64,000 bases of DNA from Escherichia coli. Its GTDB lineage: Bacteria; Pseudomonadota; Gammaproteobacteria; Enterobacterales; Enterobacteriaceae. Every line of letters begins with the position of its first letter. Position 1 is the stretch's first letter. Made by a program: the position numbers and the translations under genes. Below, piece after piece: positions 8,107 through 62,360 of the stretch. The stretch lies in the NCBI RefSeq assembly GCF_011045215.1, contig NZ_CP049201.1, one strand, 5' to 3'. Below the pieces are notes generated by a model, which saw nothing but the letters and a program-made list of their open reading frames with translations, was not told the DNA's origin and made no database searches.

Positions 8107-8194
8107 GGTGAGGTGTCCGAGTGGCTGAAGGAGCACGCCTGGAAAGTGTGTATACGGCAACGTATCGGGGGTTCGAATCCCCCCCTCACCGCCA
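8107..8194 (+). tRNA. serW: tRNA-Ser (anticodon GGA), 88 nt, long variable arm
   Basis: GGTGAGGTGTCCGAGTGGCTGAAGGAGCACGCCTGGAAAGTGTGTATACGGCAACGTATCGGGGGTTCGAATCCCCCCCTCACCGCCA; position directly after infA identifies serW. Confidence 0.92.
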
Positions 8195-13869: not shown

Positions 13870-16392
13870 TTATGCCGGTAACTCCGGGGGTAATGCTTCT
13901 TCCAGCCGGTTAACCATATTGCCGAGATGGGATGCATCATATTCCATGACGGGGCGTTGCCTGATGATACTGACCACCAGTGGTTTGATTAACATATTGG
14001 TCGCGGCCCGTTGTTGTATACCGGCGGCGAAAATGATCTCCAGAGCATTCTGATCGATAACACGGGCCAGATTCGCGTTCAGATTTTCTGTTTCATGTCC
14101 GGTCAGCAGGAAACTGCCGGCAAGCCATGTCACCTGTTCCTGAATCATTGCCAGAATTTTGACGCGATCTTCTTCAACCAGCGCTCCGGCAATTTTTCCT
14201 GATACAGCGGAGGCAATCATTCCCCCCAGAACACCGCCAACCACACGCCCTGTCAGTGCACCAAATGGTCCCAGTGGACTGAACAGTATCCCGCCCGCCA
14301 CTGACCCGACAGCTCCACCTGCCACACCGGAAGATGCCACGGCAAGATTCCTGATGAACTGCGTACCGGAGATCCGTCCCCGCAACATTTTGATCATGTC
14401 AGGGCCGGTTGTGACAGCTACCAGTGCCAGAGATGTCACCAGCGTACCCTTCATCACTTTGTTCAGGGCACTGATATTTCCTGCACCGGTCCCCTTCTGA
14501 AGAGCCAGTCGGACAGTCGGGCTGGCAGTCGAAAAATCAATGTGCTTCAGCATACCCTGAACAACACTGAGCCGGTGGAGTTGCTGGGTTGTGACGTAGA
14601 CAGCCAGTGTGCGGGTGAAGGTTTTTCCTGCCTGGACAGCAGCTGTCTGCAGAGCAGCATCGCGATCGCCGGTGCTGAGCCAGAAGACCGATGCCGTCAG
14701 GGCAAAACTGATCCCTCCGGCCGCCAGACTGACAACCGAACCCTCGGCAATATCATAAGTGACCGATTCGATGGTCCCGAACCGGGTGATATTACGGGCC
14801 TGAGTATAAGTCAGATGTCCCCGACGAATCAGCCGGGACGCTTCTGCGGGATCGATTACACCGGGTACTTTACCTTCGCGGATCTTATTCCTCATGGTTT
14901 CAACAGCGCCGGCATACTGATCACGGGGGACTTCCAGTTGCATGGGGCCATTATTTCCCATGTAACGATACTGTCCGTTTTGTCCGTCGAATGCCGCACC
15001 GACGCTACGGGCTGCAGTTGAACAATATTTCGTCTGGATTTCTGTTCCGCTGACCAGTCTGTCTGCTCCATTTCTGGCATTATTATCACCGAGGATCCGT
15101 GCGTTTTTCAGACGGATTCTGTCGACAATATGGTTTCCCCGTTCAGCGGCAAACCCATGTCCCTGCCCTCCGGAAGCAAACATTTTCTCATTTGTACTCC
15201 AGGTTTCCGGCAGTTTCATGAGAATCAGACCATTCGCCGTTGCATCGGAAATAAAACTGTTGTAGGGGCGTTCATAAATTTCCTGACACAGTGTTTCTGT
15301 TTCGCGACAAAGAGAGGAGCAGTACCATTCCGGATCCGGCTTATGATTTTCCGGGGCATGATGTACTTCTGTCAGCCCGCAGGAGGCACAGACACGAAGC
15401 TCATCCACGTGATGGAATGATACAAAACGGCGACCTTCTGAAAAGGGATACCAGTCACCGCCGTCCAGGCAACGATCGAGAAAATCGTCATTCGCTTCCG
15501 GTGATAAATTCAGGCGGTTCCGGAAGAGTGTTTTCAGTTCATCAGGTGTGAATGACAGGTTCTCTTTCAACTGTTCGTTAAACCCTGCCATGTTTCTTTC
15601 ATACCAGGCATTGTTCAGTAACCAGTTTCCGTCTGCCAGTTCAAATTCCCTCAGCTCTCCCCGGGAAATCCGTTGAGAAATAAGCGTCAGCCAGATGCGC
15701 TCCGTCAGTGAGTCAGGAAGGCTGTAATCGTTTTGCAAACTGGTCAGCCACGATTTACTGTTGAGCACCGGTTGTTCTTCCAGTGTCTGGCTGATGGCAC
15801 AGGTCAGTTTTTTCAGCGCCTGGATTTGGCTGGCCGCCCATAGCAGCGTCACTAATGCAGCCAGCCAGTACAACAACCCGCCCCACCACATCAGTGACGG
15901 TGAAATATCGTACTGTAACGCGATCAATGGTGCGCATGCAGAACAAGCCATAAGGAAAAAGGCAGTATAAAAACAGCAGTAATATCCGTTAATTTCCTTG
16001 CTGATATCTTCTGGTGTGATCCCGTTCTGCTGAATGTTTTTGATCTGCAGGGGAACAGCCAGCAGACCACCGGCGAGAGCGGTGGTCAGAATAAATTTCA
16101 CGGAGTCAAAGGTGTGAGACTCCAGCGCAATATGTTTACCATCAAGTCCCCACATGAAGCTGATGATCATTCCGGCAATCGTCAGAAATACGCCTGCCAG
16201 CCAGCGAATATGGAACAACCGGGTTATGCGTTCGGTGATATAGCCAGCCAGTAAGGCCGGGCCGAACAGACACAGCAATATGAGCCCTGCCAGCGCAGAA
16301 GCCGTGCTGATTAATGCTCTGAACAAAAGGCGAAGAATGGCAAATCCTGCGATCAGCAGGATCAGCGCGCCGACTATCTGTAACATAGTCAC
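13870..16392 (-). CDS. Large inner-membrane protein of unknown function (840 aa), YeeR-position downstream of flu
   Basis: Track ORF; hydrophobic N-terminal ~250 aa; central cysteine cluster CASCGLTEVHH...CSSLC; Gly-rich hydrophobic C-terminal third. Confidence 0.6.
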   Translation of the reverse strand: MTMLQIVGALILLIAGFAILRLLFRALISTASALAGLILLCLFGPALLAGYITERITRLFHIRWLAGVFLTIAGMIISFMWGLDGKHIALESHTFDSVKFILTTALAGGLLAVPLQIKNIQQNGITPEDISKEINGYYCCFYTAFFLMACSACAPLIALQYDISPSLMWWGGLLYWLAALVTLLWAASQIQALKKLTCAISQTLEEQPVLNSKSWLTSLQNDYSLPDSLTERIWLTLISQRISRGELREFELADGNWLLNNAWYERNMAGFNEQLKENLSFTPDELKTLFRNRLNLSPEANDDFLDRCLDGGDWYPFSEGRRFVSFHHVDELRVCASCGLTEVHHAPENHKPDPEWYCSSLCRETETLCQEIYERPYNSFISDATANGLILMKLPETWSTNEKMFASGGQGHGFAAERGNHIVDRIRLKNARILGDNNARNGADRLVSGTEIQTKYCSTAARSVGAAFDGQNGQYRYMGNNGPMQLEVPRDQYAGAVETMRNKIREGKVPGVIDPAEASRLIRRGHLTYTQARNITRFGTIESVTYDIAEGSVVSLAAGGISFALTASVFWLSTGDRDAALQTAAVQAGKTFTRTLAVYVTTQQLHRLSVVQGMLKHIDFSTASPTVRLALQKGTGAGNISALNKVMKGTLVTSLALVAVTTGPDMIKMLRGRISGTQFIRNLAVASSGVAGGAVGSVAGGILFSPLGPFGALTGRVVGGVLGGMIASAVSGKIAGALVEEDRVKILAMIQEQVTWLAGSFLLTGHETENLNANLARVIDQNALEIIFAAGIQQRAATNMLIKPLVVSIIRQRPVMEYDASHLGNMVNRLEEALPPELPA

Positions 16393-16506: not shown

Positions 16507-19356
16507 TCAGAAGGTCACATTCAGCGTGGCCTGACCGTTATAGCCTTCGGCGCTGTTGCCGCTGACACTGTGGGCATAACCGGCCTGAACGCCCAGGGTG
16601 ATATTTTCCCGGACACGGGCTTCCAGTCCGGCCTGCAGGTCCAGTGACGTGCCATTCCGGGACGGTGAAAACGTCATGTTACTGCCGGCGGCGGCTGTAC
16701 CCATGCTCATGTCACCCCGGGAGCTGAAAGTGCGGATAACAGAAGGCTGTACCCACCAGTTCACCGGCAGTTCACTCACACGGTGTTTTGCACTGTCGCG
16801 CAGAGTGTCACGGGATGAGGTGCCTTCGCCAAAAGTCATATCGTTGTGGCTGCCCAGACGGAAGCCGGCACGCACATGTTGTGCACTGCCATGCCCGAAC
16901 TTCACATAACCGGCGTTATCCTGGCCGTCATCCAGGGAGAGCCCCTGCCAGGTGTACTGCAGTTGTGGCTCCAGCATCAGGTTGTCAGTGATACTGAAGG
17001 GCAGACCGGTTTCCAGTGAGCCCAGCCAGCCCCAGCCCCGGGCGCGGAAGTCGTTATTGTCCGATGACGCTTTCATGCTGTGGCGGGTTCCCTGGGCCAC
17101 AATGTCAGCCCACAGGCCGGAGGACGTGTGTACCAGATTCAGGTATCCGCCCAGGCTGCCGGCATCATCCCGGACCGTGCCGGCACGGGAGCCGTCATCA
17201 TCCTTAACATCAACGGAAGAATGGCCAGCAGCACCATACACTCCTGTCGTCAGTGACATACCGGCAACCTCTGTTCTCAGCAGGTCACCCTCCAGACGGA
17301 CGAGGCCATAGCTGCCGCTGCTTTCCGGCGTGGCCCCACGGGCAATACCACCGTTGTTATCGTGCCCGAGATGACCGCCCTGAATGCTGAGACGGACGCT
17401 GTTATTTTCACCGCTTACACCGGTCTGATGGCTGCGGGAACCTGCCAGAATCCGGTCATAGTCCATTGCCTGTGTCAGCATGGAGGCATACAGGGGGACT
17501 TCAGCACGATAAGCATTTTCACTGCGCAGGTACCAGTCTTCATCGCTGTCACGGTTCAGGGTGTAGTTAAAGGCGCCGGCCTGAAGCGGGCGACTCAGGG
17601 CAAACGCACCTTCTTCTGTGGTAGCACCATTCTGTGCATCCACAACCCGGATACCCTGTCCGGAGGTTGCCACCCCGAGGTTACTGTTTCCGACATTTGT
17701 AAACGCAAGCCAGGTTTTGCCGGTTGCCTGACCACCATTAATCACCAGCTGGTCAGAGGCATTACTGCCATCAAGGCTGACACGCATATTGATGGTGCCG
17801 CCCTGGCCGGTGAGGTTCGTGGTGGTTAGTTTATGGAACGTTACCGGGGAGTTACTTTTTGCAACAGCACGGCTCAGCGCGGCATCCGGTGTCGTCTGAT
17901 TATCAAAGTGAATCTCTCCTGCGTTAATAATATCGCCGGTACTGACCACATCACCATTCAGTACCATACTGGCGCCTTTACTGAGCTGTGTTCTGCCACT
18001 CAGACTTCCCCCGGCAGCCAGCGTCAGTGTTCCACGATGTCCGACAGTGGTGTTGCTGGCCAGTCCTCCGGCATTAACCGTAAAGCTGCCGCCATTTTCC
18101 AGCAGCAGGCCGCTGGCCTGACCGGATATGCCATCAATACTGAACTTACCGCTGGCATTGGTCCCCTCAACAGTGGCACCACTGTCTGCAATCAGGGCAC
18201 CACCGGATGTCATGGTGACATCTGTTGCCTTACCACCGGCAGACACTGCCAGGGTACCGCCGTCATCCACCAGTGTTTTCCAGGCTGAATGGCCCTCCAG
18301 TACATCCAGGCGACCGCCGGACTCCAGAACAACGCCGTCAGCCTTACCGTTTTCCACTGTGAAATTCCCCAGGCGGTTTGTGCCGGTGACAGTTGCAGCA
18401 GTACTGGTAACCAGTGCACCGCCCGTGTTCTGGGTGACTGCAGTGGCTTCCCCGCCGGCATGTACCCTCAGTTCACCGTTCTGATTTATGGTGGTGTTAC
18501 CGGCAGCGCCACCGGCCTTAACAACCTGCCAGCCCCCCTCGTTAATTACCGTGTTCAGCGCCAGTCCGTCCTTGTGCACATACTGGTAACCGCCATTCAG
18601 TGTGGTATTCAGGGCCCTTCCGTGTACCGACTGGTCACCACCTGCGTAAATGAGAGTGTCACGGGCTATCCCGGAAGATAAGATAATCTGCCGTCCATTT
18701 TTGTTGATGGTGGTGGATTCTGCTGTTCCCTGGACCTTCTGACCCGTGTACGAGTTGTCAGAATCCGGGCCGCCTTCTGCGCCGGTGTTGATGATGGTTC
18801 CTGTTGCCAGCCCGCCACTTTTAACGCTCTGGTAACCGTCGCGGTTGATAATTGTACCGGTGGCAACCCCGCCCTCATGAACCCACTGCTCGCCTCTGTT
18901 ATTCAGCGTGGTGTTCACCGCCAGCCCGTTCAGGCTCTGTCCCCCGCCGTCACGAATAACCGTATCACTGGCTGTTCCCCCCTCCAGCACGACCTGACGA
19001 CCATTTGTGGTGACAGTGGTGTTTCCGGCTATCCCGCCATTCTGTATCCATTGCCCACCGGTGTTTTCTTCACTGTCCGGCCCCAGTTCCAGCCCGGTAC
19101 TGATGGTCATTCCGTTGGCCGTACCGAGGACAATCTGGTTGTCATGATTTGTCAGTGTTCCGCCGCTCATGGTTTCTCCCGCCTGTACAACCGTGTCAGC
19201 AGCCAGTGCCGGGACTGACGTGACAGCAGCAAGAGACAGCGCAACCGCCACACCGGTGCGTTTTCCCCGTGAGCGGGCCAGTTCGGAGGCCACCACCAGG
19301 GTGCCCGTAATGTGATTCCATACCAGCCTGTAGCTGGTGTTCAGATGTCGTTTCAT
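16507..19356 (-). CDS. flu: Antigen 43 (Ag43) self-associating autotransporter, ~949-aa allele
   Basis: Track ORF 16507..19431(-); start at MKRHLNTSYRLVWNHITGTLVVASELARS (extended signal peptide); repetitive passenger domain; C-terminal beta-barrel ending ...GYNGQATLNVTF. Confidence 0.92.
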   Translation of the reverse strand: MKRHLNTSYRLVWNHITGTLVVASELARSRGKRTGVAVALSLAAVTSVPALAADTVVQAGETMSGGTLTNHDNQIVLGTANGMTISTGLELGPDSEENTGGQWIQNGGIAGNTTVTTNGRQVVLEGGTASDTVIRDGGGQSLNGLAVNTTLNNRGEQWVHEGGVATGTIINRDGYQSVKSGGLATGTIINTGAEGGPDSDNSYTGQKVQGTAESTTINKNGRQIILSSGIARDTLIYAGGDQSVHGRALNTTLNGGYQYVHKDGLALNTVINEGGWQVVKAGGAAGNTTINQNGELRVHAGGEATAVTQNTGGALVTSTAATVTGTNRLGNFTVENGKADGVVLESGGRLDVLEGHSAWKTLVDDGGTLAVSAGGKATDVTMTSGGALIADSGATVEGTNASGKFSIDGISGQASGLLLENGGSFTVNAGGLASNTTVGHRGTLTLAAGGSLSGRTQLSKGASMVLNGDVVSTGDIINAGEIHFDNQTTPDAALSRAVAKSNSPVTFHKLTTTNLTGQGGTINMRVSLDGSNASDQLVINGGQATGKTWLAFTNVGNSNLGVATSGQGIRVVDAQNGATTEEGAFALSRPLQAGAFNYTLNRDSDEDWYLRSENAYRAEVPLYASMLTQAMDYDRILAGSRSHQTGVSGENNSVRLSIQGGHLGHDNNGGIARGATPESSGSYGLVRLEGDLLRTEVAGMSLTTGVYGAAGHSSVDVKDDDGSRAGTVRDDAGSLGGYLNLVHTSSGLWADIVAQGTRHSMKASSDNNDFRARGWGWLGSLETGLPFSITDNLMLEPQLQYTWQGLSLDDGQDNAGYVKFGHGSAQHVRAGFRLGSHNDMTFGEGTSSRDTLRDSAKHRVSELPVNWWVQPSVIRTFSSRGDMSMGTAAAGSNMTFSPSRNGTSLDLQAGLEARVRENITLGVQAGYAHSVSGNSAEGYNGQATLNVTF

Positions 19357-19569
19357 CAGCTTTTCCTTACAGAGGGTGAATAAAAAAGCCGGTACCCACA
19401 AATGTGGATACCGGCAGGTACAAAACAGCATGGTCAGATAAAGTGGTTTTTCCCGGACATAAATGCTTCCCCTCTCTCATCCGCCAGAGAAGTATCAGTC
19501 CGTTGTGTGCAATTCCGTTCTGCATGATGAAGAGATTCAGCTGCCTTTTCGCAGGCCATTAACCACTAC

Positions 19570-19612
19570 AAACGATCGATACTAACGATCGATACCTGTT
19601 TTATCGATCGTT
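19570..19612 (-). promoter_or_regulatory. agn43 phase-variation switch: three clustered GATC (Dam) sites overlapping the expected OxyR operator
   Basis: ACGATCGATACTAACGATCGATACCTGTTTTATCGATCG; three GATC within ~40 bp, ~215-255 bp upstream of the flu start. Confidence 0.65.
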
Positions 19613-20600: not shown

Positions 20601-21254
20601 ACATGTATTCCCGGTGAAAAAAGACAAAACCCCGCGCACCGGAAAGGTGGCGGGGGATTCACGGAGATAATATCTGCCTGAAATTATTTAGGATGCAGGT
20701 ATCTTCAGATAATCATACCTCCAGAATTTTGTTCTTAATAGTTGAGTAGTGGTATTTGGTTTCCCTGAGAGAATATAAAGGTGAATCATACTGTATTGAG
20801 TTTGATTCTATTTGTACTGAGACAGGTATCTTCATGATTATAATCAAAAGTCGGGTGGATTGGTCTGGCGCTCATTATTTTTTCGAATAAACTCACTAAT
20901 TATTGTAACCATCCCAGAGGAGATGATTTTATGTATAATTGTGGTGAATCATATTCAGAATACGACATATCATTATCTGACGATGAAAACTATAACGATG
21001 ACTATTATCGTGAACGCCCGTGCCCGGGAGAAGTTTTCGGCTATGATAATACTGAGGATAATGATGAGGCGGCATCTGATTATGCACTAAAAATAAATGA
21101 AAACTCTGATTAATACGAGGTGGCTGATAATAAGACAATCAATGACAAATATTAATGAATAAACATAATCAGGCGCTCAATACTTGATTTAATCTGGGCG
21201 CCTGATTAAAATCTGAGGTAACATATAATAATTTTCATCAAAATAGTATTTATG

Positions 21255-22274
21255 TGTGTGATTCATAGACATCGTTTCAATTTTCTCAGCTCAAGTTCAA
21301 GCTTGTAATTCTGTTCCTGAATATGCTCCTTATTGGGCTGATAGCTTGCGTGAACGGCATCCGAGTATGGCGTTTTCTCAGCAAGTTCAAAGTAGCGCTC
21401 CATCGGCGTTTTACCGTTGTGAGCGCAATGAGGACGTTCCCAGTTATAGTAATGCTGCCATTCTGCCAGTCGCTCCTCCAAGTTATCAGTAGCGATATCT
21501 ACGGTAGCGTAAAACTCAGCTTTGTCTGTCTTTTGGGAGCGTTCAACTTTGCCATTAAGATGGGGTGATGCTGGTTTATTTGGACGAAACTTGATGCCGT
21601 ATTCTTTCAGTCTTTCCTGCACCTTAACGGCAAAAAACTCTCTTCCCCGGTCTGTCTGAAAGCGCTGAATCGGGAACGGCATTTCTTCAATAAAACAATC
21701 AATGAAATCCAGTGTGTTTGTAGTCGTGCGACGGGAATAGAGCCTCAGAACTCTGTAGCGAGTGCAATCATCAACAGATGTGTACTGATATAAGCCGGGG
21801 CCAATTTTACAGGTATCCATCTGAACCCAATCACCGGGAACAGGGCGTTCGTAGCGAATGAAATCAGCTTTACGCCGGAGTTTAACAACAGGTTTAACCT
21901 GATTCTGGCAAAGAACTTTGTGGATTGTTGCCATTGCAAGTGAGATTGAATGAAGTCGTTTTAACTCGCTTTGAATCCGTCTTGCACCCAGATTTCGCTG
22001 GGAACGTAACTCCAGAATCAGAGCGACTTCGCAAGTGCCGGTTTTCGTTGATGGCGAACGCTTAGGGCGACGGCTGTGGCTTTCCAGACCAGCGATGCCC
22101 TGAGCCAGATATCTGCGCCACCATTTACGCAATGTGGGGCGGGAAATACCGCAGCGACGGCATACGAACCCCGCGTCACCAGACGTTTCATAGAGTTTTA
22201 CCCACTGTAGCCGCTGCTGAATTTCCCTGTTCATAGTAAGGCATTATAGTGAAACGATGTCTATGAATCACACA
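21255..22274 (-). mobile_element. ~1.0-kb insertion sequence with 25-bp perfect terminal inverted repeats and one DDE transposase (IS481-family-like)
   Basis: Left end TGTGTGATTCATAGACATCGTTTCA (21255-21279) is the exact reverse complement of the right end (22250-22274); encloses the transposase ORF. Confidence 0.75.
21263..22234 (-). CDS. DDE transposase (323 aa), N-terminal HTH plus integrase-core domain
   Basis: Track ORF; N-terminal HTH region (CRRCGISRPTLRKWWRRY), integrase-core region with W..D-/-D-/-E spacing (WVQMDTC... TDRGREF ... ERSQKT). Confidence 0.8.
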   Translation of the reverse strand: MNREIQQRLQWVKLYETSGDAGFVCRRCGISRPTLRKWWRRYLAQGIAGLESHSRRPKRSPSTKTGTCEVALILELRSQRNLGARRIQSELKRLHSISLAMATIHKVLCQNQVKPVVKLRRKADFIRYERPVPGDWVQMDTCKIGPGLYQYTSVDDCTRYRVLRLYSRRTTTNTLDFIDCFIEEMPFPIQRFQTDRGREFFAVKVQERLKEYGIKFRPNKPASPHLNGKVERSQKTDKAEFYATVDIATDNLEERLAEWQHYYNWERPHCAHNGKTPMERYFELAEKTPYSDAVHASYQPNKEHIQEQNYKLELELRKLKRCL

Positions 22275-22424
22275 AGTAAAGAACCTTGCAGAGGCGTTCG
22301 AGCATTATAACGAATGGCATCCGCATAGTGCGCTGGGTTATCGCTCGCCACGGGAATATCTACGACAGCGGACCTGTAATGGGTTAAGTGATAACAGATG
22401 TCTGGAAATATAGGGGCAAATCCA
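22275..22424 (+). mobile_element. IS2 right-end remnant (last ~40 codons of the orfB transposase plus right terminal repeat)
   Basis: Encodes ...[42 protein letters not shown] and ends ...TGGAAATATAGGGGCAAATCCA, which matches the IS2 terminus as I remember it; truncated where the IS481-like element begins. Confidence 0.7.
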
Positions 22425-24797: not shown

Positions 24798-25730
24798 TCA
24801 GCTGATGATCTCAGAAAAATCCAACTTTATCTGATGAATATCCTCAAGCTGTACTGATGGAAAATAATATCCCTGAACCCCCCATAAACCAGTTCCTGAA
24901 GCAGCATGCAGATAATCCTTATTTTCAACACCCTCGGCAATAACCAGAGGGCAAAATCTTTTTATATTGTCTATTAATGCAGAAAAATGCGGTTTCATAC
25001 TGTATTTTTGAAAAAAACTTTTGTCAAGTTTCACTGCCTGGAATTTATTTCTTATCAATGTATGTATTGTACTGTTACCACTCCCTAAATCATCCAGCCA
25101 GATATGTTCTGACAAATTAATGAGAAAAGGAATTATTGCATCATCAGCCTTTATGACCGGATATGTTTCAGAAATCTCAAGAACAATAAAATCATATGAC
25201 TTTATTATATCTTGAATGTTTTTATTTCTGTATATATACTGACATGTATCATAATCGACGTTAAGAGAACACAGTATATTATGCTTGCTAAAAAAAGAAG
25301 CTTTACTTATTATTTTTCTTATCTGTAATTCCAGCAAATCAATTTTCATCTCTGCTGTAAACATATTCAGCGTTTTCACGGTAGGAAGTTGTTTTCCGTT
25401 AACAGAATAAAATCGGCTCAGAATCTCCACCGCAATCAGCCTGTTACTGTTACCTGCCGTCACGACAGGCTCTGCTATGAAGATAGTTTTCATAAACTGC
25501 CCCATATGTGAATTGTTGCTTTCTCTTATGACTGTTGCTGTCAACGAATTAAACAAAAAGTCCCTGTTCATCCCTTCATCTGCCATGCCCTCCCCCCGGA
25601 ATAAATCAGTACCAGACAGAGCGCAGCACTTCTTTACAGCACAAAACAGCAATATAATCAATTGCTTTTTATTTATTACGTGACAACCATTACAAAAAAA
25701 CAAAATATTTTTCCTTTCTTTTCCTTTCAT
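24798..25730 (-). CDS. EAL-domain protein (cyclic-di-GMP phosphodiesterase-like), AT-rich
   Basis: Track ORF; EAL-family motifs AVEILSR, DDLGSGNS, KLDKSF, AEGVE, QGYYFP; start may be the internal MADEGMNRDF. Confidence 0.65.
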   Translation of the reverse strand: MKGKERKNILFFCNGCHVINKKQLIILLFCAVKKCCALSGTDLFRGEGMADEGMNRDFLFNSLTATVIRESNNSHMGQFMKTIFIAEPVVTAGNSNRLIAVEILSRFYSVNGKQLPTVKTLNMFTAEMKIDLLELQIRKIISKASFFSKHNILCSLNVDYDTCQYIYRNKNIQDIIKSYDFIVLEISETYPVIKADDAIIPFLINLSEHIWLDDLGSGNSTIHTLIRNKFQAVKLDKSFFQKYSMKPHFSALIDNIKRFCPLVIAEGVENKDYLHAASGTGLWGVQGYYFPSVQLEDIHQIKLDFSEIIS

Positions 25731-25833
25731 CCATACTTACATAAATAAAAAACTGTAACAGCGCAAAGAATTATGACTATCATCTGCTCCTTCATACTGA
25801 AAAAAGATCATTTGATTTTCGGTTTTTAATGAT

Positions 25834-26475
25834 GTGTTAATATTAAATTATGGCGATATTCTTCTTGTTAACCCATCTTTGATGACAAGCTTTCTTACAT
25901 TTTCAGATAAATTCACTGAAGTACCTCTGAATGAAGATACAGTAAACCATTATATACACCATCGCCATACAGGGGAAAAACCAACCTACGACGGGCCTGT
26001 TCATTTTCTGAAAAAATGTTTTGCCTACCCGGAAGTGTTGTCAGAACTCATAAACAATATAAATTATGAAAATCATATCCATCCGGAATTCAGAGAAGCT
26101 GTCTGTTTCTCGTTATTGTCAATTTTTAATACCCGCCCCGCTTTAATAAACTTCCTTTCATCTGGCATCCCAACTTTTTCAGGAAAAGTACGAAACATAT
26201 TACTGTCAGATATATCACGACAATGGAAGTTGCGCGATATATCTGAATATGTATATATGAGTGAAAGTCTGATAAAGAAAAAACTTCTGTCTGAAAACAC
26301 ATGTTTCAGTAAAATTTTACTCGAAGTACGAATGTTTTCAGCCAGAAACTTACTGGAACAGAAATACTCAGTGAAACACGTTGCTGAAAAATGTGGCTAT
26401 TCCAGTACATCCTACTTTGTCTATCTTTTCAGACAACACTTTAATATAACACCACGACAATTCACCATGATATGA
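25834..26475 (+). CDS. AraC-family transcriptional regulator, AppY/EnvY-like
   Basis: Track ORF; C-terminal double HTH ...RQWKLRDISEYVYMSESLIKKKLLSENTCFSKILLEVRMFSARNLLEQKYSVKHVAEKCGYSSTSYFVYLFRQHFNITPRQF. Confidence 0.7.
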   Translation: MLILNYGDILLVNPSLMTSFLTFSDKFTEVPLNEDTVNHYIHHRHTGEKPTYDGPVHFLKKCFAYPEVLSELINNINYENHIHPEFREAVCFSLLSIFNTRPALINFLSSGIPTFSGKVRNILLSDISRQWKLRDISEYVYMSESLIKKKLLSENTCFSKILLEVRMFSARNLLEQKYSVKHVAEKCGYSSTSYFVYLFRQHFNITPRQFTMI

Positions 26476-27065
26476 TCGTCCGGAAAAACAGATTCAATGG
26501 CGTTGACAAATGAACCCGAGCAATAACCATGCGGGCTGACAACGGGGCAGAACCTGAGCCAGCCGGGAGTCATTCCCTGGGTCACAACTTCATAACTTGC
26601 CACAAATACTCGTGTCAATACTTCGCAACCAGACTCAATCACCCGGCTGCGTGAACCAGTTAATCCAGCATCCAACAGAGGAACGGGCACAGCAGAGCGT
26701 TCTGGCAACGTCGCTGACACGGTCACCCCGGTACAGCATCAGCATAGCAGTCAGTCTGCGGGCATAATTTTATCGTGTGTTTTATGAATGGCTTTCTGCA
26801 TCAGGCGTCGTTCGTCACGGGAAATTGGTGCTATGATCGGCATTGCTCAGTACGGTTGGTGATTTGTTTTGATTTGGCGATTGACCAGATCGCACCATCC
26901 GGGCTGAGTTCCCTCAAAGGGATCTACTATTCCGCGCAGCTATTTAGCTACCAGCATAAATCACACTAAAATATTAAAATTATAATTCGCGTTGAAATTA
27001 TATTCAGCCCCTGAAGTTAACAGAGGCTGGTCGATTTGTATGATATGATGATTTCTGGTTAATTA

Positions 27066-27372
27066 TCAGTGAAGGCTGATCGTATCCATAATCGTACCAT
27101 CTTCAGCGCCTTTCAGAGCGAGATTGGCTTCGTAATATTTACCTTCAGCCATTAAGCTCTGCGCACTCCTCACTTTCTGCTGAGTCTGTTTTAAAGGCAT
27201 AAGCCACTGTGTTTCAGATATATTAATTCCTGCCAGTTGTAGTTTTTCAATTGCACCTTTTTTGTCACCTTTATCCAGTTTTTTATTTGCTTCATCGATG
27301 ACTTTCTGCTTTTCTGGCGTAGTTGTAAAATCTTCTGCCAGCGTCAGTTGACTGTTAATAATGACATAAATA
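27066..27372 (-). pseudogene. 5'-truncated gene fragment (C-terminal ~100 codons, no start codon) abutting the IS3-family element
   Basis: Reverse-strand frame reads ...DIYVIINSQLTLAEDFTTTPEKQKVIDEANKKLDKGDKKGAIEKLQLAG...AEGKYYEANLALKGAEDGTIMDTISLH*; open frame begins at a stop with no ATG. Confidence 0.3.
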
Positions 27373-27461
27373 TCGCCCTCTTGAGGGTTTTTTTATCTTT
27401 TCTGACCAAATGCGTATTTTCATGAAAGGAGATCACTCAATAACCCCCTGTGTCAGCATAG

Positions 27462-28004
27462 TTGTCGCCTCAACTTTTTAAGGAGATAACAATGCCAGGA
27501 CAACCAATATCAAGTGAGCTCAAAGAGAAAGGACTGATATGGCTTTTACCACCATACTGCTGGTCACATCGTCAGATAGCCCGTAAGCTGAAGATCAGTG
27601 CCTCAGTTGTATCAAAATGGAGATATGAGTTAGTGGAGCAAGGACTTTTACCTGAAAATGAAAAGATTACCTCCGTTGATGTTGAAGACTGGACACCGGA
27701 GCGTCGATTCTCAGTTGTTCTTGAGACGGCTACGCTGTCAGAAATGGAGCTTGCTGATTATTGTCGACGCATGGGATTGTTTGTTGAACAGGTTAAAGAA
27801 TGGCGGGCTATCTCAATTCAGGCGCATGAAAAAAAATTGACGGAAAATATTCGAACAGACAGGGCATTGCGTGACGCAAAAAATAAGTTACGAGAACTGG
27901 AGAAAGAGCTTAAGCGCAAAGATAAAGCTCTGGCGGAAGCTGCAGCCCTGCTTATATTGAGGGAAAAGTTCAATGCCCTCTGGGACAACAGCGAGGAAGA
28001 CTGA
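27462..28004 (+). CDS. IS3-family transposase OrfA (HTH plus coiled-coil region)
   Basis: Track ORF; alternative start MPGQPISSELKEK at ~27492; leucine/charged-rich C-terminal region. Confidence 0.8.
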   Translation: MSPQLFKEITMPGQPISSELKEKGLIWLLPPYCWSHRQIARKLKISASVVSKWRYELVEQGLLPENEKITSVDVEDWTPERRFSVVLETATLSEMELADYCRRMGLFVEQVKEWRAISIQAHEKKLTENIRTDRALRDAKNKLRELEKELKRKDKALAEAAALLILREKFNALWDNSEED

Positions 28005-29029
28005 CCCCTCTCCTGGAGTGGCGTAAAATTATTGCTCTTGTCCGTGAGGCCATCTCCAACGGCGCCCGGAAAAGTCAGACTTGTAGGTGTATCGGTATTT
28101 CTATTCGGACACTTCAGCGCTGGACTGATGGCAACGTTATTACCACGGATCGAAGATCCGATACTGTAAACAGATCTCCCCGAAATAAGCTGTCAGAAGC
28201 GGAAAGATTGCAGATACTGGAGTTGTGCAACTCTCCAGAGTTTGCATCCTTGCCTCCAAATGTAATCGTGCCAACTCTGGCAGACAGAGGGACTTATATT
28301 GCTTCTGAATCAACCTTTTATCGTGTACTGAAATCAGCCAACCAGTTGACGAAAAGATCCCGAGAATGCCAGTACAAACGGCCTGATGTACTCAGGGCTG
28401 TTGCGCCGAATCAAGTCTGGAGTTGGGACATCAGCTATTTGCCGTCCTGGGTCAGAAGCCAGCATTTTTACCTCTATATGATCGTCGATATTTACAGTCG
28501 CAAAATTATTGCTGCAGAGGTATTTGCCAGCGAGTCTGGAACACATGCAGCAGAACTACTCCAGCGTGCAGTATGGAATGAAAAATGTTCATCCAACAAT
28601 CTGGTACTCCATTCTGATAACGGTGGTCCCATGCGCAGTTATACGTTGTTGGCGAAAATGTATGCGCTTGGAGTGCTAAGTTCTTATTCCCGGCCAAGAG
28701 TCAGCAATGATAACCCTTACTCAGAATCTTTGTTCCGGACTCTCAAATATTGTCCCTGGTGGCCTGAGAACGGTTTTCGCACTATTGATGATGCCAGAGT
28801 ATGGGTAAACCGTTTTGTAAACTGGTACAACTTTGAACATAAGCACAGCGGGATCAAATACGTCACGCCAGCCGAGCGTCATCAAGGTAATGACATGAAA
28901 ATACTGGCAGCCAGAAAAGCAGTATACCAGCTGGCACGCGAACAGCACCCTGAACGTTGGGGAAAGCATCTACGTAACTGGGACTACATATCAGAAGTCT
29001 ACCTGAATCCAGAAAAAGAGGCTGCATAA
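27990..29029 (+). CDS. IS3-family transposase OrfB (DDE integrase core), expected to be expressed by -1 frameshift from orfA
   Basis: ATG-bounded track ORF 28208..29029, but the frame is open upstream to ~27990 and overlaps the orfA end near GGGAAAAG; integrase-core region with W..D-/-D-/-E spacing (WSWDISY ... HSDNGGP ... ESLFRTLK). Start coordinate approximate. Confidence 0.75.
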
Positions 29030-29143
29030 CGTAATTTTATTACAAAAGGCGACAACTACCTTGAAAAACGCCGGTTACTCACCGATCTCCTTCACGGTAA
29101 TACGCAAATATCCACAACCTTGTTTGTTGTACCAGCGGAAATT

Positions 29144-29392
29144 TCACTCATAATCTGACCGTGTTTTTTTACGGAAGTTGAGTCTGTCCATCAGATTAAA
29201 AAACATTACAATAAATGTAATTACCGCCCCCGTAATACACCCCCATATAATACTTCTCACCACCTGCCCGTCCGGAATTAAAAAATTCCCTGTCGTAATG
29301 CATATGATAAACGACACCATTCCACCGACAAGAAAATAAGCAGATACACAAAAAATACAGGAACATACTAAAAGCTTGATGAAAAAAATCAC
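29144..29392 (-). CDS. Small hydrophobic membrane protein (82 aa)
   Basis: Track ORF; two predicted transmembrane segments. Confidence 0.35.
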   Translation of the reverse strand: MIFFIKLLVCSCIFCVSAYFLVGGMVSFIICITTGNFLIPDGQVVRSIIWGCITGAVITFIVMFFNLMDRLNFRKKTRSDYE

Positions 29393-29612
29393 GACATATC
29401 TCCAACTGTTTCTTTGATTAAGATTTGTTTAATCTCCCCCGGAAATCAATGCCCTGTCTCCCGGAAATTAACAAAACCAAAATGCACGATTTTCCCCACC
29501 CCATGAATATCAGATGGTCAGCGTGATGTTTTCTCGCTCCGGAGATTAAGCGGTTTATCATTACCCTCCGGAAACGCCACACATTGTAAATGTACTGGTT
29601 GTCATCTGTGGG

Positions 29613-30248
29613 CTACTTATTACCAGTAAGCAGGGCCTCACGGTCTGCAGGACTTAACGCCAGATACCGCATGAGCCGGGACATACTCAGGCCCGTAACT
29701 TCGCAAATCTGTGGTCGTGTTATTGTTGGTAGCTTGTTCTGCGCATCAATAATTTCCAGAAGTTCTGATTTCTTCAGTGGTTTTTTTGTCCGCCGTACGT
29801 TGATAATCAGTCGCCCTTCAGCAATATCCCGGATGCGCTGCACTTCATCTTCGGACATTGAAAGATAATACCGGGCTGTCCCCCGATTCAGCCCGAGATA
29901 ACGGGCAATTTTTATCCTGTTCCAGCCCTTGTCCTCCAGTGCACGCATAATCTGATACAGCCGCCATCTACGCTGCGTGTCTGGTATATCCCGTCCGTTC
30001 GGACAGAAATGTTCAATAACCTCATCAACAGTAGCCATATCCCGCACTTCTTCATTAACGAGCGCCTGAACGTCATTCTCTGGCATGGCCAGCCAGCGTT
30101 TCATTGTTGACACAGATACGTCGAATTTTGCACATAAGTCTCCCGGTAATATCCGGGGATTATCGGCATACGCCTGACGCAGTGCCTGTATTACATGTCC
30201 TTCACCGGGTTCTTTGCAAGATGGAATACGCATAACATTCTCCGACAA
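29613..30248 (-). CDS. Putative DNA-binding protein with repeated helix-turn-helix-like motifs (211 aa)
   Basis: Track ORF; three HTH-like segments (VSVSTMKRWL, LGLNRGTARYYL, TGLSMSRLMRYL); no family recognised. Confidence 0.5.
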   Translation of the reverse strand: MSENVMRIPSCKEPGEGHVIQALRQAYADNPRILPGDLCAKFDVSVSTMKRWLAMPENDVQALVNEEVRDMATVDEVIEHFCPNGRDIPDTQRRWRLYQIMRALEDKGWNRIKIARYLGLNRGTARYYLSMSEDEVQRIRDIAEGRLIINVRRTKKPLKKSELLEIIDAQNKLPTITRPQICEVTGLSMSRLMRYLALSPADREALLTGNK

Positions 30249-30281
30249 TAAGAACAGTTCGCTTTTCCTGTTAAGAAAACG

Positions 30282-30524
30282 TTATTTAAGTCCCTGCCTT
30301 AAGTGTTTTGCTTCTTCTTCAAGAAGCGTCTGTAACTCCCGTTTCACATCAAGTCTCTCAAGTTTGAGTATCACGACTTTCATGGAATATCCTCCCCCAA
30401 AATCAGTTTCAAGTCTGGCTATCTGGCGTTCAAGCGAGCAATACTGACTGTATAATCTGTCAAAATGTTGGTGTCTGCCTTTCAGGGTGGACATTACATC
30501 ATGATACTTAAGGAACATATTCAT
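30282..30524 (-). CDS. Small hypothetical protein (80 aa), charged/coiled-coil-like C-terminus
   Basis: Track ORF; stop overlaps nothing, start overlaps the upstream ORF stop by 4 nt. Confidence 0.4.
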   Translation of the reverse strand: MNMFLKYHDVMSTLKGRHQHFDRLYSQYCSLERQIARLETDFGGGYSMKVVILKLERLDVKRELQTLLEEEAKHLRQGLK

Positions 30525-30958
30525 TTCTCCATGGTCTTACATGAATTATTGTATGCCCCGTCCATTACAAAATTATTTATCAACTCACGTAAAACCACCT
30601 TTTGTTCATTATCCTGAGCATACTGAATCTGGCATTCAATTTCGTCTACAGTCAGTCTTATATCAGATTCATTAATTATTTCCGTTATTCGTTTTCTCAG
30701 ATATTCAGGCTGGCCTTTCGTGTTTCGTAAAACAAGACAGAATAACATGTCATAAAGGGCACAATGCCATGAATAACCATCATTGGTTAAAATAAGTCCC
30801 CAAACCTGCTCCGCAATAAGCTGCAGAATAAAGGATTCAGCCTGTTCTGTTTGTCCGGGAGCAACACGGTATAGCGGAGCAATCACAGCAAAAAACAGTT
30901 CATTTAACCAGGATTCCACCTCCTGCGTATTACCGTGAAGGAGATCGGTGAGTAACAT
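30521..30958 (-). CDS. Hypothetical protein (145 aa); N-terminus is encoded by IS terminal-repeat sequence, probably a 5'-truncated gene
   Basis: Track ORF; the first 12 codons (MLLTDLLHGNTQ) are encoded by the inverted IS3-type repeat copy at 30924-30955 and the ATG lies at the IS21-family terminus. Confidence 0.4.
   Translation of the reverse strand: MLLTDLLHGNTQEVESWLNELFFAVIAPLYRVAPGQTEQAESFILQLIAEQVWGLILTNDGYSWHCALYDMLFCLVLRNTKGQPEYLRKRITEIINESDIRLTVDEIECQIQYAQDNEQKVVLRELINNFVMDGAYNNSCKTMEK
30924..30955 (-). repeat. Isolated inverted copy of the IS3-family right terminal repeat
   Basis: GCGTATTACCGTGAAGGAGATCGGTGAGTAAC is the reverse complement of 29073-29104; together they bracket the 29107-30923 segment. 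Confidence 0.7.
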
Positions 30959-31008
30959 CGATGGAGATCGGTTCGTGTCACTTTCACAGAACCGTTTTTA
31001 AATTACCT

Positions 31009-44344: not shown

Positions 44345-44460
44345 TCTTTTACATGTAACAGTACCAGGGGATATTCCGCACATCTCTGTGGCTATCATCC
44401 CCACCACATCGCCGGTGGCAGCACCTGCGGCACCAGCAAGAACGTTATTTCCCAATGTCC
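44345..44460 (-). pseudogene. Remnant of a cdiA pretoxin-region coding segment (no start codon)
   Basis: Reverse frame encodes ...GNNVLAGAAGAATGDVVGMIATEM..., homologous to cdiA at ~46620-46700 (QGNNALAGAAGAATGEVVGMIATQM); nucleotide similarity visible by eye. Confidence 0.45.
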
Positions 44461-45352: not shown

Positions 45353-45571
45353 CTATTTACGATAGTATCTTCGCATTTGTAGATAGAGTTGTAACCAAAT
45401 CCCAGCACCTCCCCATAAGCCAACTACTGCGCCAATTATTCCGTATTTTACATACACCTCAGAAGGTATTGGTTCCCGAGCTATAAACCAGATACTAACC
45501 ACTATTCCAATAGAGCAAGTAGCTATAGATATAAGTAACAACTTAATAAGAAGTAGTAGATGTTTTTTCAT
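45353..45571 (-). CDS. cdiI: Putative CdiI immunity protein, small inner-membrane protein (72 aa)
   Basis: Track ORF; start overlaps the cdiA stop; two predicted transmembrane helices. Confidence 0.65.
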   Translation of the reverse strand: MKKHLLLLIKLLLISIATCSIGIVVSIWFIAREPIPSEVYVKYGIIGAVVGLWGGAGIWLQLYLQMRRYYRK

Positions 45572-54804: not shown

Positions 54805-54819
54805 TCTGATAAACCTGAC

Positions 54820-55347: not shown

Positions 55348-55356
55348 GAAATTTTC

Positions 55357-60409: not shown

Positions 60410-60410
60410 T

Positions 60411-60959: not shown

Positions 60960-61225
60960 GAAATGTTCCTTTTCGAATCCTGTTGAATTTTACTGATCCG
61001 GTACAGACACGCAGGAAAACACGCCTGCACCGGTGTAATGCCAGTTACAAACAATAAGAACGGAAGGACGAATCAGTCAGGAAATGATGACAAACCGTTC
61101 ACTGACCGGAGGATACCACCAGGAAGGTTAACGGGAGAGTAACCGGTACCAGGGACAGGGCCGGGTTCCACAATACCAGCGCCGGCATTTCGCACATTGC
61201 CAGCGTACCGGCATCCCAACACGTT

Positions 61226-61459: not shown

Positions 61460-61527
61460 GGTCAGAATATCCTCTGTAAGATTTATGAAGGTTGTGCGAA
61501 TGCGGGGAAAGATGCTGAGCCGTGTTT

Positions 61528-62133: not shown

Positions 62134-62360
62134 TGCGTCCTGCCCATGAATGAGCTGACGTGTTATAGCTTGCGGATGGGGTTGATGGAATAAGTGAAGA
62201 ACCGAAGCAGAACGGAAAGATCAGGTCACCGACAAGGGACAGAACACTGGATATGGTTCAGGGCGAATAATCTCCGTTGACTTCAGTTCACATCATTAAG
62301 CAAGGTGGTAAGGTTTTACCGACGGAATGTTTCCAGGACAGGAAGCTCAGGATTTAAGTT

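What the first reader, a model, noticed from the sequence alone, without database searches (positions are those of the whole stretch)
29107..30923. 1.8-kb cargo segment bracketed by inverted copies of the same IS3-type terminal repeat
The 32-bp sequence at 29073-29104 is the exact reverse complement of 30924-30955, bracketing four minus-strand ORFs (82, 211, 80 and 145 aa) of unknown function. The 145-aa ORF takes its first 12 codons and its ATG from repeat and IS21 terminal sequence, so at least one gene here is an IS-created chimera or truncation. The 211-aa protein carries three HTH-like motifs. The segment could be a mobilisable passenger module or the wreck of a larger gene set.
Basis: seen in the sequence. 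Interest (0 to 1): 0.55.

Follow-up and report, generated by a model that had tools for sequence, protein, structure and literature searches.

The report
Island DNA between two insertion sequences
The 1.8-kb stretch is not transposon cargo but a leftover piece of an E. coli-type genomic island, caught between two different insertion sequences (an IS3-family element and ISEc12 of the IS21 family) that carry the same 33-34-base ends; the gene disruption is ordinary, the shared ends are the only curious point.

Summary
The inverted repeat is real: 29074-29106 is the exact reverse complement of 30924-30956 (33 nt). The two copies belong to two different insertion sequences. The left copy is the right end of an intact 1,696-bp IS3-family element (27411-29106). 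The right copy is the right end of ISEc12 (IS21 family, 30924-35003), which carries a nested IS4-family element (33430-34919).

The 1,817 bp between them is island backbone. In E. coli C5 the same DNA (98% identical) has no IS on either side and runs straight into the sequence found at window 35004 onward. ISEc12 inserted into a 223-codon spnT-like gene and made a 5-bp duplication (CCTCC). That split produced the "145-aa" and "106-aa" chimeric ORFs. The tips of both repeats point into the segment, so they cannot mobilise it.

The IS3-family copy has no target duplication and joins sequences that lie 47 kb apart and inverted in C5, so it marks a rearrangement joint.

The ORFs are a Fis/Mor-like HTH protein, a DUF465 protein, the spnT-like fragment and a doubtful 82-aa ORF. 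None is a transposase fragment.

By-product: the IS3-type lineage and the ISEc12 lineage share a homologous 34-nt terminal module, nearly or fully identical within each genus checked.

The parts
26949..27410 (-). 3' fragment of a yfdX-family gene, cut off by the IS3-family element
   Evidence: 94% identical to the YfdX gene region of E. coli C5 and RM11911. The homology ends at the IS tip.
27411..29106 (+). Intact 1,696-bp IS3-family insertion sequence; no target-site duplication here (flanks CCAAA / AATAT)
   Evidence: 96-98% identical full-length copies occur in 256 E. coli genomes, labelled 'IS3 family transposase, programmed frameshift'. OrfB scores 169 bits against NCBIfam transpos_IS3, cutoff 160. 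The copy in RM8082 has a CCTTA(A) duplication.
27411..27444 (+). Left terminal module (IRL) of the IS3-family element; identical to the IRL of ISEc12
   Evidence: 100% complementary to 34970-35003 (pair I2).
27492..28004 (+). orfA (170 aa, two HTH regions plus a leucine-zipper-like C-terminus)
27926..29029 (+). orfB reading frame (-1 relative to orfA), DDE/rve catalytic domain
   Evidence: The frame is open from 27926 and overlaps the end of orfA. NCBIfam transpos_IS3.
29074..29106 (+). Right terminal module (IRR) of the IS3-family element: left arm of the reported inverted repeat, tip at 29106
29107..30923 (.). Island backbone left between the two IS elements (the reported 'cargo')
   Evidence: 98% identical and colinear with E. 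coli C5 chromosome L001 12001-13829: 24 substitutions and two in-frame 6-nt indels.
29144..29392 (-). 82-aa hydrophobic ORF, doubtful gene
   Evidence: Conserved as an ORF in C5 but not annotated there. No hit in NCBIfam, PHROGs or PADLOC.
29613..30248 (-). 211-aa helix-turn-helix protein (Fis/Mor-like central HTH)
   Evidence: Pfam HTH_8, E = 2e-5. PHROG 'late transcriptional activator', E = 1.9e-6. PGAP label in C5: 'helix-turn-helix domain-containing protein'. Only 3 substitutions against C5.
30282..30524 (-). 80-aa DUF465 / YdcH-like protein
   Evidence: NCBIfam PRK11415, E = 2.8e-12, below the curated cutoff. PGAP label 'DUF465 domain-containing protein' in C5 and on plasmids.
30521..30923 (-). 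3' part (C-terminal ~133 aa) of a spnT-like gene split by ISEc12
   Evidence: Aligns to the C-terminal part of the 223-aa C5 ORF. The family is called 'SpnT protein' in AFDB.
30924..30958 (-). IS-derived start (ATG plus 11 codons) of the artefactual 145-aa ORF
   Evidence: No Shine-Dalgarno sequence lies upstream (read from the sequence).
30919..30923 (.). Target-site duplication CCTCC, copy 1
   Evidence: C5 has a single CCTCC at this point.
30924..35003 (-). ISEc12 (IS21 family; 2,581 bp without the nested element)
   Evidence: 100% identical to ISEc12 copies annotated by PGAP. The same outer ends occur at unrelated loci in L003 and L004. IstA equals protein cluster P0121, 'IS21-like element ISEc12 family transposase'.
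30924..30956 (+). IRR module of ISEc12: right arm of the reported inverted repeat, tip at 30924
31009..31758 (-). istB (helper ATPase)
31770..33311 (-). istA (transposase, 513 aa)
33430..34919 (+). Nested IS4-family element (transposase 33497-34912), with 9-bp duplication CGATGTTAT at 33421-33429 and 34920-34928
   Evidence: 100% identical 1,490-bp copies are annotated 'IS4 family transposase'. Uninterrupted ISEc12 copies carry one copy of the 9-mer.
34970..35003 (-). IRL module of ISEc12
35004..35008 (.). Target-site duplication CCTCC, copy 2
35004..35271 (-). 5' part of the split spnT-like gene (it reads into ISEc12, giving the '106-aa' ORF 34951-35271)
35268..35597 (-). PerC-family regulator gene, first gene of the disrupted row
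   Evidence: PGAP label in C5 and L002. PHROG 994 plus transcriptional-activator families.
39476..39523 (+). Relic of the right end of a related IS3-type element (module plus GGCGTTTTTCAAGG)
   Evidence: It matches the IRR of the L010-type element.

Best explanation
The segment 29107-30923 is a piece of a tRNA-Ser-linked genomic island, and two independent insertion-sequence events happen to bracket it. On the right, ISEc12 (IS21 family) transposed into a spnT-like gene. It duplicated 5 bp (CCTCC) and split the gene into a 5' part (35004-35271) and a 3' part (30521-30923). An IS4-family element later inserted into ISEc12. On the left, an intact IS3-family element sits at a rearrangement joint: a yfdX fragment on one side, island backbone on the other, and no target duplication. 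This joint is most likely the product of recombination between two IS copies, or of an IS-mediated inversion or deletion. The two 33-nt repeats are identical because this IS3-family lineage and the ISEc12 lineage use the same terminal module, not because one element is present twice. Both tips point into the segment, so a DDE transposase acting on these two ends cannot excise or copy it. The 145-aa ORF is an accidental fusion of IS end sequence to the 3' part of the split gene. Shown: the element identities, boundaries and duplications, colinearity with C5, and the shared module. Inferred: the order and type of the left-hand rearrangement, polarity of the ISEc12 insertion on the DUF465 and HTH genes, and the lack of mobility.
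For: The repeat is exact. C5 carries the segment without any IS and continues into the equivalent of window 35004-35658, with one CCTCC. ISEc12 copies at unrelated loci (L003, L004) have the same 137-nt and 84-nt outer ends, including the 33-nt and 34-nt modules. ISEc12 is reported to make 5-bp duplications (PMC10711316). Its relatives in Salmonella, Arsenophonus and Xenorhabdus have the same module with 5-bp duplications directly outside it. The nested IS4-family element has a 9-bp duplication and complete 100% identical copies elsewhere. The IS3-family element is a unit of its own, with duplications at other sites: CCTTA(A) in L005, CAAAA in L015 and AAAAG in L038. The left flank is a yfdX 3' fragment. 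The right flank lies 47 kb away in C5 in the opposite orientation, and window 29107-60384 is colinear with C5 in reverse. The ORFs are not transposase fragments.
Against: The source genome is not in the collections searched, so neither the reciprocal junction of the left-hand rearrangement nor the empty site in a close relative could be inspected. C5 is itself a mosaic. Window 60385-64000 follows a different, more common island arrangement, so 'inversion relative to C5' may not describe the real event. The outer ends at 27411 and 35003 form a perfect 34-nt inverted pair with tips pointing outward. Future movement of the whole 7.6-kb block therefore cannot be excluded. There are no expression data.
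Confidence: 0.9

Rival explanations
1. Composite transposon: the block 27411-35003 (IS3-type element, 1.8-kb cargo, ISEc12) arrived here as one unit, using its two outward-pointing, identical 34-nt IRL modules.
For: 27411-27444 and 34970-35003 are 100% complementary with tips outward (pair I2). Both IS types use this module and both make 5-bp duplications.
Against: There is no duplication around the block: CCAAA on the left against CCTCC on the right. The 'cargo' and the DNA to the right of the block are contiguous in C5, with the 5-bp duplication around ISEc12 alone. The cargo is never seen with these IS elements elsewhere.
Confidence: 0.03
2. The right-hand repeat is the remnant of a second copy (or a 68-bp mini-copy) of the IS3-type element, into whose centre ISEc12 inserted.
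For: A 68-bp element made of just the two modules exists in L002. The identity with the IS3-type ends stops exactly at the inner edge of the modules.
Against: Every ISEc12 copy examined at other loci has the same modules, with duplications directly outside them. IstA relatives down to 69% identity in other genera do as well. The 68-bp element occurs at one locus in 16 genomes only.
Confidence: 0.03
3. The segment is an invertible (flip-flop) cassette: homologous recombination between the 33-nt inverted repeats switches the orientation of the HTH/DUF465 genes.
For: Perfect 33-nt inverted repeats lie 1.8 kb apart. The length is near the minimum needed for RecA-dependent recombination (general knowledge).
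Against: The repeats are IS ends acquired by two unrelated insertions. No invertase gene or recombinase site is present. The orientation equals that in C5, where there are no repeats. Only one orientation is seen in the window.
Confidence: 0.02
4. The four ORFs are decayed transposase or IS fragments, so the whole region is IS debris.
For: The 211-aa protein gives weak hits to the N-terminal HTH of IS21 and IS481 transposase models, E = 0.003-0.02.
Against: Those hits cover about 40 residues of generic HTH and score far below the cutoffs (17 against 160 bits). The genes are annotated non-IS genes in C5. They include a DUF465 protein and a member of a conserved 214-aa family with a confident all-helical model.
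Confidence: 0.01

Closest known systems
ISEc12 insertion into tssM of E. coli ST131 clade C (PMC10711316)
   Same: The same element (100% identical istA/istB and ends) makes a simple insertion that splits a gene in two, with a 5-bp target duplication (ACTGC there, CCTCC here).
   Different: Here ISEc12 carries a nested IS4-family element, lies 1.8 kb from an IS3-family element with the same ends, and disrupts a spnT-like island gene.
Composite transposons of the Tn10/Tn5 type (two IS copies flanking cargo; established knowledge)
   Same: Two IS elements in inverted orientation flank non-IS genes, and the outermost ends are identical inverted repeats.
   Different: The two IS elements belong to different families. 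There is no duplication around the block. The cargo is native DNA contiguous with the outside flank in C5. The two repeats named in the finding are the inner ends, with their tips pointing into the cargo.
Non-autonomous elements and cross-mobilisation (MITEs; IS101 mobilised by the gamma-delta transposase; recalled from general knowledge, not tested here)
   Same: Short elements made only of the two terminal modules exist: 68 bp in E. coli, 73 bp in Arsenophonus and 75 bp in Photorhabdus. One end type is carried by more than one kind of element.
   Different: Here two autonomous elements with transposases of different families (IS3-type OrfAB, IS21-type IstA/IstB) share the end. The mini-elements are single-locus relics, not amplified families.
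IS21-family end architecture (multiple subterminal repeats as IstA binding sites; established knowledge of IS21)
   Same: ISEc12 has three or four GAGATC-N6-ATAAC units at its left end and two at its right end. The outermost unit is part of the 34-nt module.
   Different: The IS3-type element carries only the outermost unit, followed by its own conserved box TAGTTGTCGCC at both ends.

Membership tests
Composite transposon (1.8-kb segment as cargo of the two reported repeats) | Terminal repeats oriented with their tips at the outer boundaries of the mobile unit | tested here: not met
   The tip of the left repeat is at 29106 and the tip of the right repeat at 30924. Both abut the segment and point into it.
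Composite transposon (whole block 27411-35003) | Target-site duplication flanking the whole unit | tested here: not met
   The flanks are ...GACCAAA and CCTCCTT.... The 5-bp duplication surrounds ISEc12 alone.
Composite transposon (whole block 27411-35003) | Cargo and flanking IS elements found together at other loci or in other genomes | tested here: not met
   The cargo is complete in 1 of 5,426 E. coli genomes, without IS. No plasmid carries it.
ISEc12 (IS21 family) | istA transposase followed by istB helper ATPase | tested here: met
   100% DNA identity to PGAP-annotated ISEc12. IstA equals cluster P0121, with Pfam rve plus Mu-transpos_C_2. IstB_IS21 lies next to it in relatives.
ISEc12 (IS21 family) | Terminal inverted repeats ending 5'-TG...CA-3', with repeated subterminal units | tested here: met
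   The ends read TGCGTATT...AATACGCA, and GAGATC-N6-ATAAC units are repeated at both ends.
ISEc12 (IS21 family) | 5-bp target-site duplication | tested here: met
   CCTCC appears on both sides and once in C5. The literature value is 5 bp.
IS3 family (element 27411-29106) | orfA and orfB in the 0 and -1 frames with overlap; DDE (rve) domain in OrfB | tested here: met
   The frames overlap at 27926-28004. NCBIfam transpos_IS3 gives 169 bits, above the cutoff of 160. PGAP reports 'programmed frameshift' in L006.
IS3 family (element 27411-29106) | Short target duplication flanking the element | tested here: inconclusive
   It is absent in the window, where the flanks are CCAAA and AATAT. It is present at other copies and relatives, at 5(-6) bp: L005, L015, L038.
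IS4 family (element 33430-34919) | Single DDE transposase, short terminal inverted repeats, 9-12 bp duplication | tested here: met
   There is one 471-aa ORF. The inverted repeats are CATATCCTTACCCA / CATACCCTTACCCA. The 9-bp duplication is CGATGTTAT. PGAP labels 100% identical copies 'IS4 family transposase'. The protein was not scanned against a family model here.
MITE (68-bp two-module element) | Multiple dispersed copies per genome | tested here: not met
   16 genomes carry one full copy each, next to the same island gene.
DUF465 / YdcH-like (80-aa ORF) | Match to the family model above its cutoff | tested here: inconclusive
   NCBIfam PRK11415 gives E = 2.8e-12 but 46.7 bits, below the cutoff of 91. 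PGAP calls the C5 orthologue a DUF465 domain-containing protein.
SpnT (split 223-codon gene) | Homology to Serratia marcescens SpnT | tested here: inconclusive
   The AFDB hit named 'SpnT protein' in S. Typhi CT18 has 77% identity. Other 'SpnT' entries have only 18-21% identity. There are no Pfam, NCBIfam or PDB sequence matches. The Serratia protein itself was not compared.
PerC family (35268-35597) | Match to PerC-type regulators | tested here: inconclusive
   PGAP labels the C5 and L002 orthologues as PerC family. PHROG 994 scores E = 8e-16, and transcriptional-activator PHROGs also match. There is no NCBIfam hit.

The most novel reading that the evidence does not exclude
An IS3-family lineage (OrfA about 170 aa, 1.7-kb elements) and the ISEc12 lineage of the IS21 family share one homologous 34-nt terminal module (TGCGTATT...GATC...TAAC). 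This module evolves in concert between the two families inside each host genus. In Escherichia it is identical at 67 of 67 nt. In Photorhabdus it is identical at 33 of 33 nt. In Xenorhabdus it matches at 33 of 34 and at 31-32 of 33 nt. An Enterobacter/Leclercia-type IS21 left end equals the right end of the L010 IS3-type element at 34 of 34 nt. The most novel reading is that the two unrelated transposition machineries recognise the same ends and exchange them. Under that reading, hybrid pairs of ends such as 27411/35003 in this window would be competent for transposition, and mini-elements could be mobilised by either family.
Probability: 0.3. Interest if true: 0.6.

Novelty: already known. 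Interest (0 to 1): 0.3.

Why it matters
For the finding as posed, it matters little. This is a routine example of IS traffic breaking an operon in a genomic island. It also shows that an identical inverted repeat does not by itself define a mobile unit. The orientation of the tips, the target duplications and an uninterrupted reference sequence decide the question. The practical consequence is for annotation. The 145-aa and 106-aa ORFs are two halves of one split gene fused to IS sequence and should be annotated as a pseudogene. The by-product could matter more to people who study mobile DNA. If IS3-type and IS21-type transposases really act on the same terminal module, IS families would be less insulated from one another than assumed. 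Such pairs could build hybrid composite transposons and drive rearrangements in islands rich in both, such as this one.

Tried and rejected
1. My first reading was that 30924-30956 and 34970-35003 are the halves of a second IS3-type copy, or of a 68-bp MITE, split by ISEc12. I rejected it when ISEc12 copies at other loci and IstA relatives in other genera showed the same outer modules with duplications outside them.

2. A recent chimera, with an IS3 body inserted into a mini-ISEc12, is rejected. IS3-type relatives down to 53% OrfA identity keep the module plus the family-specific boxes.

3. I tested whether the N-terminal HTH of OrfA is a domain borrowed from IstA. The support is weak. Pairwise identity is 42% over 52 aa, E = 1e-5. 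The OrfA-family HMM hits ISEc12-type IstA N-termini at E = 1e-6 to 1e-5, but it also hits IS100 IstA at 3e-4. The same N-terminal region aligns to IS3-family relatives such as ISAs20 and IS1240.

4. A parallel with IS1353 inside IS1326 came from memory. tblastn with OrfA against plasmids listed no row labelled IS1353 among the 30 shown, so I left it.

6. The left-hand rearrangement could not be reconstructed fully. The second breakpoint is not in the window, and C5 differs from the window beyond 60384.

7. Literature searches for shared IS3/IS21 ends, hybrid insertion sequences, or the end sequences themselves found nothing relevant. ISfinder could not be consulted, and the IS3-type element has no name in PGAP.
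Full report
**Observation.** The repeat exists. The repeat finder reports arms 29074-29106 and 30924-30956, 33 nt, 100% complementary, 1,817 nt apart (pair I3). A direct string comparison confirms this and shows that the match stops on both sides. The segment limits 29107-30923 are correct. The self-BLAST E-value is 2e-9. The four minus-strand ORFs of 82, 211, 80 and 145 aa are present.

**What flanks the segment.** A second perfect inverted pair, 27411-27444 / 34970-35003 (34 nt), was found in the same run (pair I2).

The element 27411-29106 (1,696 bp) has orfA at 27492-28004. Its orfB is in the -1 frame, open from 27926 to 29029. OrfB scores above the NCBIfam cutoff for IS3-family transposases. 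Full-length copies at 96-98% identity occur in 256 of 5,426 complete E. coli genomes. There they are annotated 'IS3 family transposase, programmed frameshift'.

The region 30924-35003 holds istB (31009-31758) and istA (31770-33311) on the minus strand. It is 100% identical to ISEc12, an IS21-family element.

A 1,490-bp IS4-family element (33430-34919) sits inside ISEc12. Its terminal repeats are CATATCCTTACCCA / CATACCCTTACCCA, and it made a 9-bp duplication, CGATGTTAT. Uninterrupted ISEc12 copies contain that 9-mer once. Without the nested element, ISEc12 is 2,581 bp long. This equals a whole-element contig in Enterobacter asburiae (L061).

**Whose repeat is the right-hand copy?** I first took 30924-30956 and 34970-35003 for the two halves of a second IS3-type copy split by ISEc12. 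One observation encouraged this: a 68-bp element consisting of just the two modules exists in E. coli strain SCAID (L002 5872-5939). The reading is wrong.

- ISEc12 copies at unrelated loci in two other E. coli genomes match window 30924-31060 and 34920-35003 at 100%. Their flanks diverge exactly at 30924 and 35003.
- Published work describes a 5-bp duplication for ISEc12 (PMC10711316).
- IstA relatives in Salmonella (91% identity), Arsenophonus (83%) and Xenorhabdus (69%) end in the same type of module. Their 5-bp duplications (AACGT, ACAGG, TCCAC, TCTGG) lie directly outside it.

The right-hand repeat is therefore the native right end (IRR) of ISEc12.

**The segment is native island DNA.** The complete 1,817 bp occurs in one of 5,426 complete E. 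coli genomes, strain C5, at 98% identity. No plasmid carries it. In C5 there is no IS on either side. The sequence runs on into the equivalent of window 35004-35658.

At the junction C5 reads ...CCACCTCCTTCTCGC... with one CCTCC. The window has CCTCC | ISEc12 | CCTCC. ISEc12 therefore made a simple insertion into a 223-codon gene.

- The gene's 5' part is 35004-35271. It reads on into the IS, which gives the '106-aa' ORF.
- Its 3' part is 30521-30923. It is preceded in frame by 35 nt of IS end that supply an ATG, which gives the '145-aa' ORF.
- No Shine-Dalgarno sequence precedes that ATG (read), so the fusion ORF is most likely not a gene.

In C5 the gene row is perC-like, the 223-aa gene, DUF465 and HTH, with overlapping stop and start codons. 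The window's 'cargo' is the distal part of this row.

**The left-hand junction.** The IS3-type copy has no target duplication; its flanks are CCAAA and AATAT. Its left flank is the 3' part of a yfdX-family gene.

In C5 that gene lies 47 kb from the segment and in the opposite relative orientation. Window 29107-60384 is colinear with C5 in reverse. The element thus marks a rearrangement joint. An inversion or deletion between IS copies is the likeliest cause.

The second breakpoint is not in the window. Beyond 60384 the window follows a different, widespread island arrangement. The exact event therefore stays unresolved.

**Can the repeats mobilise the segment?** DDE transposases cleave at the tip of each end, and the mobile unit lies between two tips that point away from each other (established knowledge). 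Here the tips (29106 and 30924) point towards each other, so the segment lies outside both elements.

The only unit with outward tips that includes the segment is 27411-35003. That block has no flanking duplication, and its right flank is contiguous with the 'cargo' in C5. It did not arrive as a unit.

The cargo does not travel with either IS. The IS3-type element is in 256 genomes, ISEc12 is in 1,369, and the cargo is in one.

**The genes.**

- *211-aa protein.* It has one clear HTH: Pfam HTH_8, residues 100-124, E = 2e-5. Two further HTH matches are weak. It also matches a phage 'late transcriptional activator' family at E = 1.9e-6. It differs from its C5 counterpart at only 3 nucleotides.
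- *80-aa protein.* It is DUF465/YdcH-like.
- *82-aa ORF.* It is hydrophobic and unannotated in C5. It lies in the most variable part of the segment: 15 of the 24 substitutions fall in 29107-29612. It is a doubtful gene.

None of the four is a transposase fragment.

**Why the ends are the same.** Relatives of the IS3-type element at 75%, 73% and 53% OrfA identity carry the same kind of 34-nt module. The module is followed by family-specific sequence: CCCCTGTGTCAGGA-TAGTTGTCGCC on the left and GGCGTTTTTCAAGG-TAGTTGTCGCC on the right. ISEc12 relatives carry the module followed by repeats of GAGATC-N6-ATAAC. An alignment of 16 ends from both families shows columns 1-34 shared and everything beyond them family-specific.

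A scan of one genome per species found the module at 41 loci.

- It sits next to IstA/IstB genes in Kosakonia, Erwinia, Enterobacter, Leclercia, Photorhabdus, Paraglaciecola and marine MAGs. Module-plus-ISEc12-type end fragments also occur in E. albertii and Arsenophonus.
- It sits next to OrfA/OrfB in Xenorhabdus innexi. IS3-type ends without the genes in view occur in Vibrio splendidus, X. mauleonii and Photorhabdus asymbiotica.

The module variants are specific to each genus but shared across the two families.

- Escherichia: 34/34 and 33/33.
- Photorhabdus: 33/33 (L030 and L039 against L031).
- Xenorhabdus: 33/34 and 31-32/33 (L020 against L038 and L027).
- An Enterobacter/Leclercia IS21-type left end equals the right end of the L010 IS3-type element at 34/34.

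Both families make 5-bp duplications. Mini-elements made only of two modules occur in E. coli (68 bp), Arsenophonus (73 bp, with an IS21-type linker) and Photorhabdus (75 bp, with an IS3-type linker). The E. coli one is a single-locus relic, present in 16 genomes.

The N-terminal HTH of OrfA resembles that of IstA: 42% identity over 52 aa. Profile tests show that this is only slightly better than generic HTH similarity.

I infer that the two machineries use the same terminal module and exchange it. This was not tested. I found no description of it in the searchable literature, and ISfinder could not be consulted.

**Context.** The window starts with trxB, cydD, cydC and aat, followed by tRNA-Ser(GGA) at 8107-8194. 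An island follows, with an Ag43-type autotransporter, IS481- and IS630-family sequences, an AraC/YdeO-like regulator, a TssA-like protein, helicases, a 3,078-aa haemagglutinin-type protein and ProQ/FinO. It is a serW/serX-type E. coli island rich in IS elements.

**Verdict.** The 'cargo' interpretation is not supported, and the 'IS-made chimera / wreck of a gene set' interpretation is. As posed, the finding is ordinary. The shared terminal module between an IS3-family and an IS21-family lineage is the only feature worth following up.

Noticed in passing
window 27411-27444, 29074-29106, 30924-30956, 34970-35003; loci L009-L064: An IS3-family lineage and the ISEc12 (IS21-family) lineage share a homologous 34-nt terminal module. 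The variants are genus-specific but identical or nearly identical across the two families in Escherichia, Photorhabdus, Xenorhabdus and Enterobacter/Leclercia. Both families make 5-bp duplications.
   Followed up: partly
L010/L011 against window 27411-29106: In the L010-type IS3 element the two module variants are swapped relative to the body: the ISEc12-IRR-like module lies upstream of orfA. The family-specific inner boxes stay in place. The mechanism of this exchange at the TAAC boundary is unexplained.
   Followed up: no
L002 5872-5939; L045 1009-1076; L032 ~405-477; L050 ~14200-14274: Mini-elements made only of the two terminal modules occur in three genera: 68 bp in E. coli, 73 bp in Arsenophonus nasoniae and 75 bp in Photorhabdus noenieputensis. 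The E. coli one sits next to the spnT-like gene at one locus, in 16 genomes.
   Followed up: partly
window 39476-39523: This is a relic of the right end of a related IS3-type element. It lies at the border between a region absent from C5 (35741-39475) and C5-homologous DNA. The region absent from C5 includes an 893-aa SF1-helicase-like ORF at 36349-39030, with hits to the antiphage ProA and Hhe models. C5 has an AAA ATPase gene at the equivalent place.
   Followed up: no
window 26949-27410 and 29107-60384: Relative to E. coli C5, about 31 kb of the window is colinear in reverse orientation with respect to the yfdX fragment. This suggests an IS-associated inversion. The second breakpoint is not in the window.
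   Followed up: partly
window 8107-8194: tRNA-Ser(GGA) lies directly after trxB-cydDC-aat. The island DNA begins after it, so the window covers a tRNA-Ser-linked island.
   Followed up: no
window 19375-19611 (-) and 16507-19431 (-): There is an Rfam IS102 RNA hit (74 bits) immediately upstream of an Ag43/Cah-family autotransporter gene.
   Followed up: no
window 21249-22280: An IS481-family element (323-aa transposase at 21263-22234) has 31-nt inverted ends and is 92% identical to a pseudogenised copy in C5.
   Followed up: no
window 26634-26949: A fragment 96% identical to an IS630-family transposase gene abuts the yfdX fragment.
   Followed up: no
window 24798-26475: An EAL-domain (c-di-GMP phosphodiesterase-like) ORF and a YdeO/GadX-like AraC-family regulator lie just left of the IS cluster.
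   Followed up: no
window 45568-57096: A 3,078-aa filamentous-haemagglutinin-type ORF is followed by a 579-aa ORF, possibly forming a two-partner secretion or contact-dependent inhibition locus. A 77-nt direct repeat (88% identical) occurs at 44377-44453 and 46617-46693.
   Followed up: no
window 30520 and 30805 against L001: The only indels between the window segment and C5 are two 6-nt in-frame differences inside or at the start of coding regions. This is consistent with the genes having been under coding constraint until recently.
   Followed up: no
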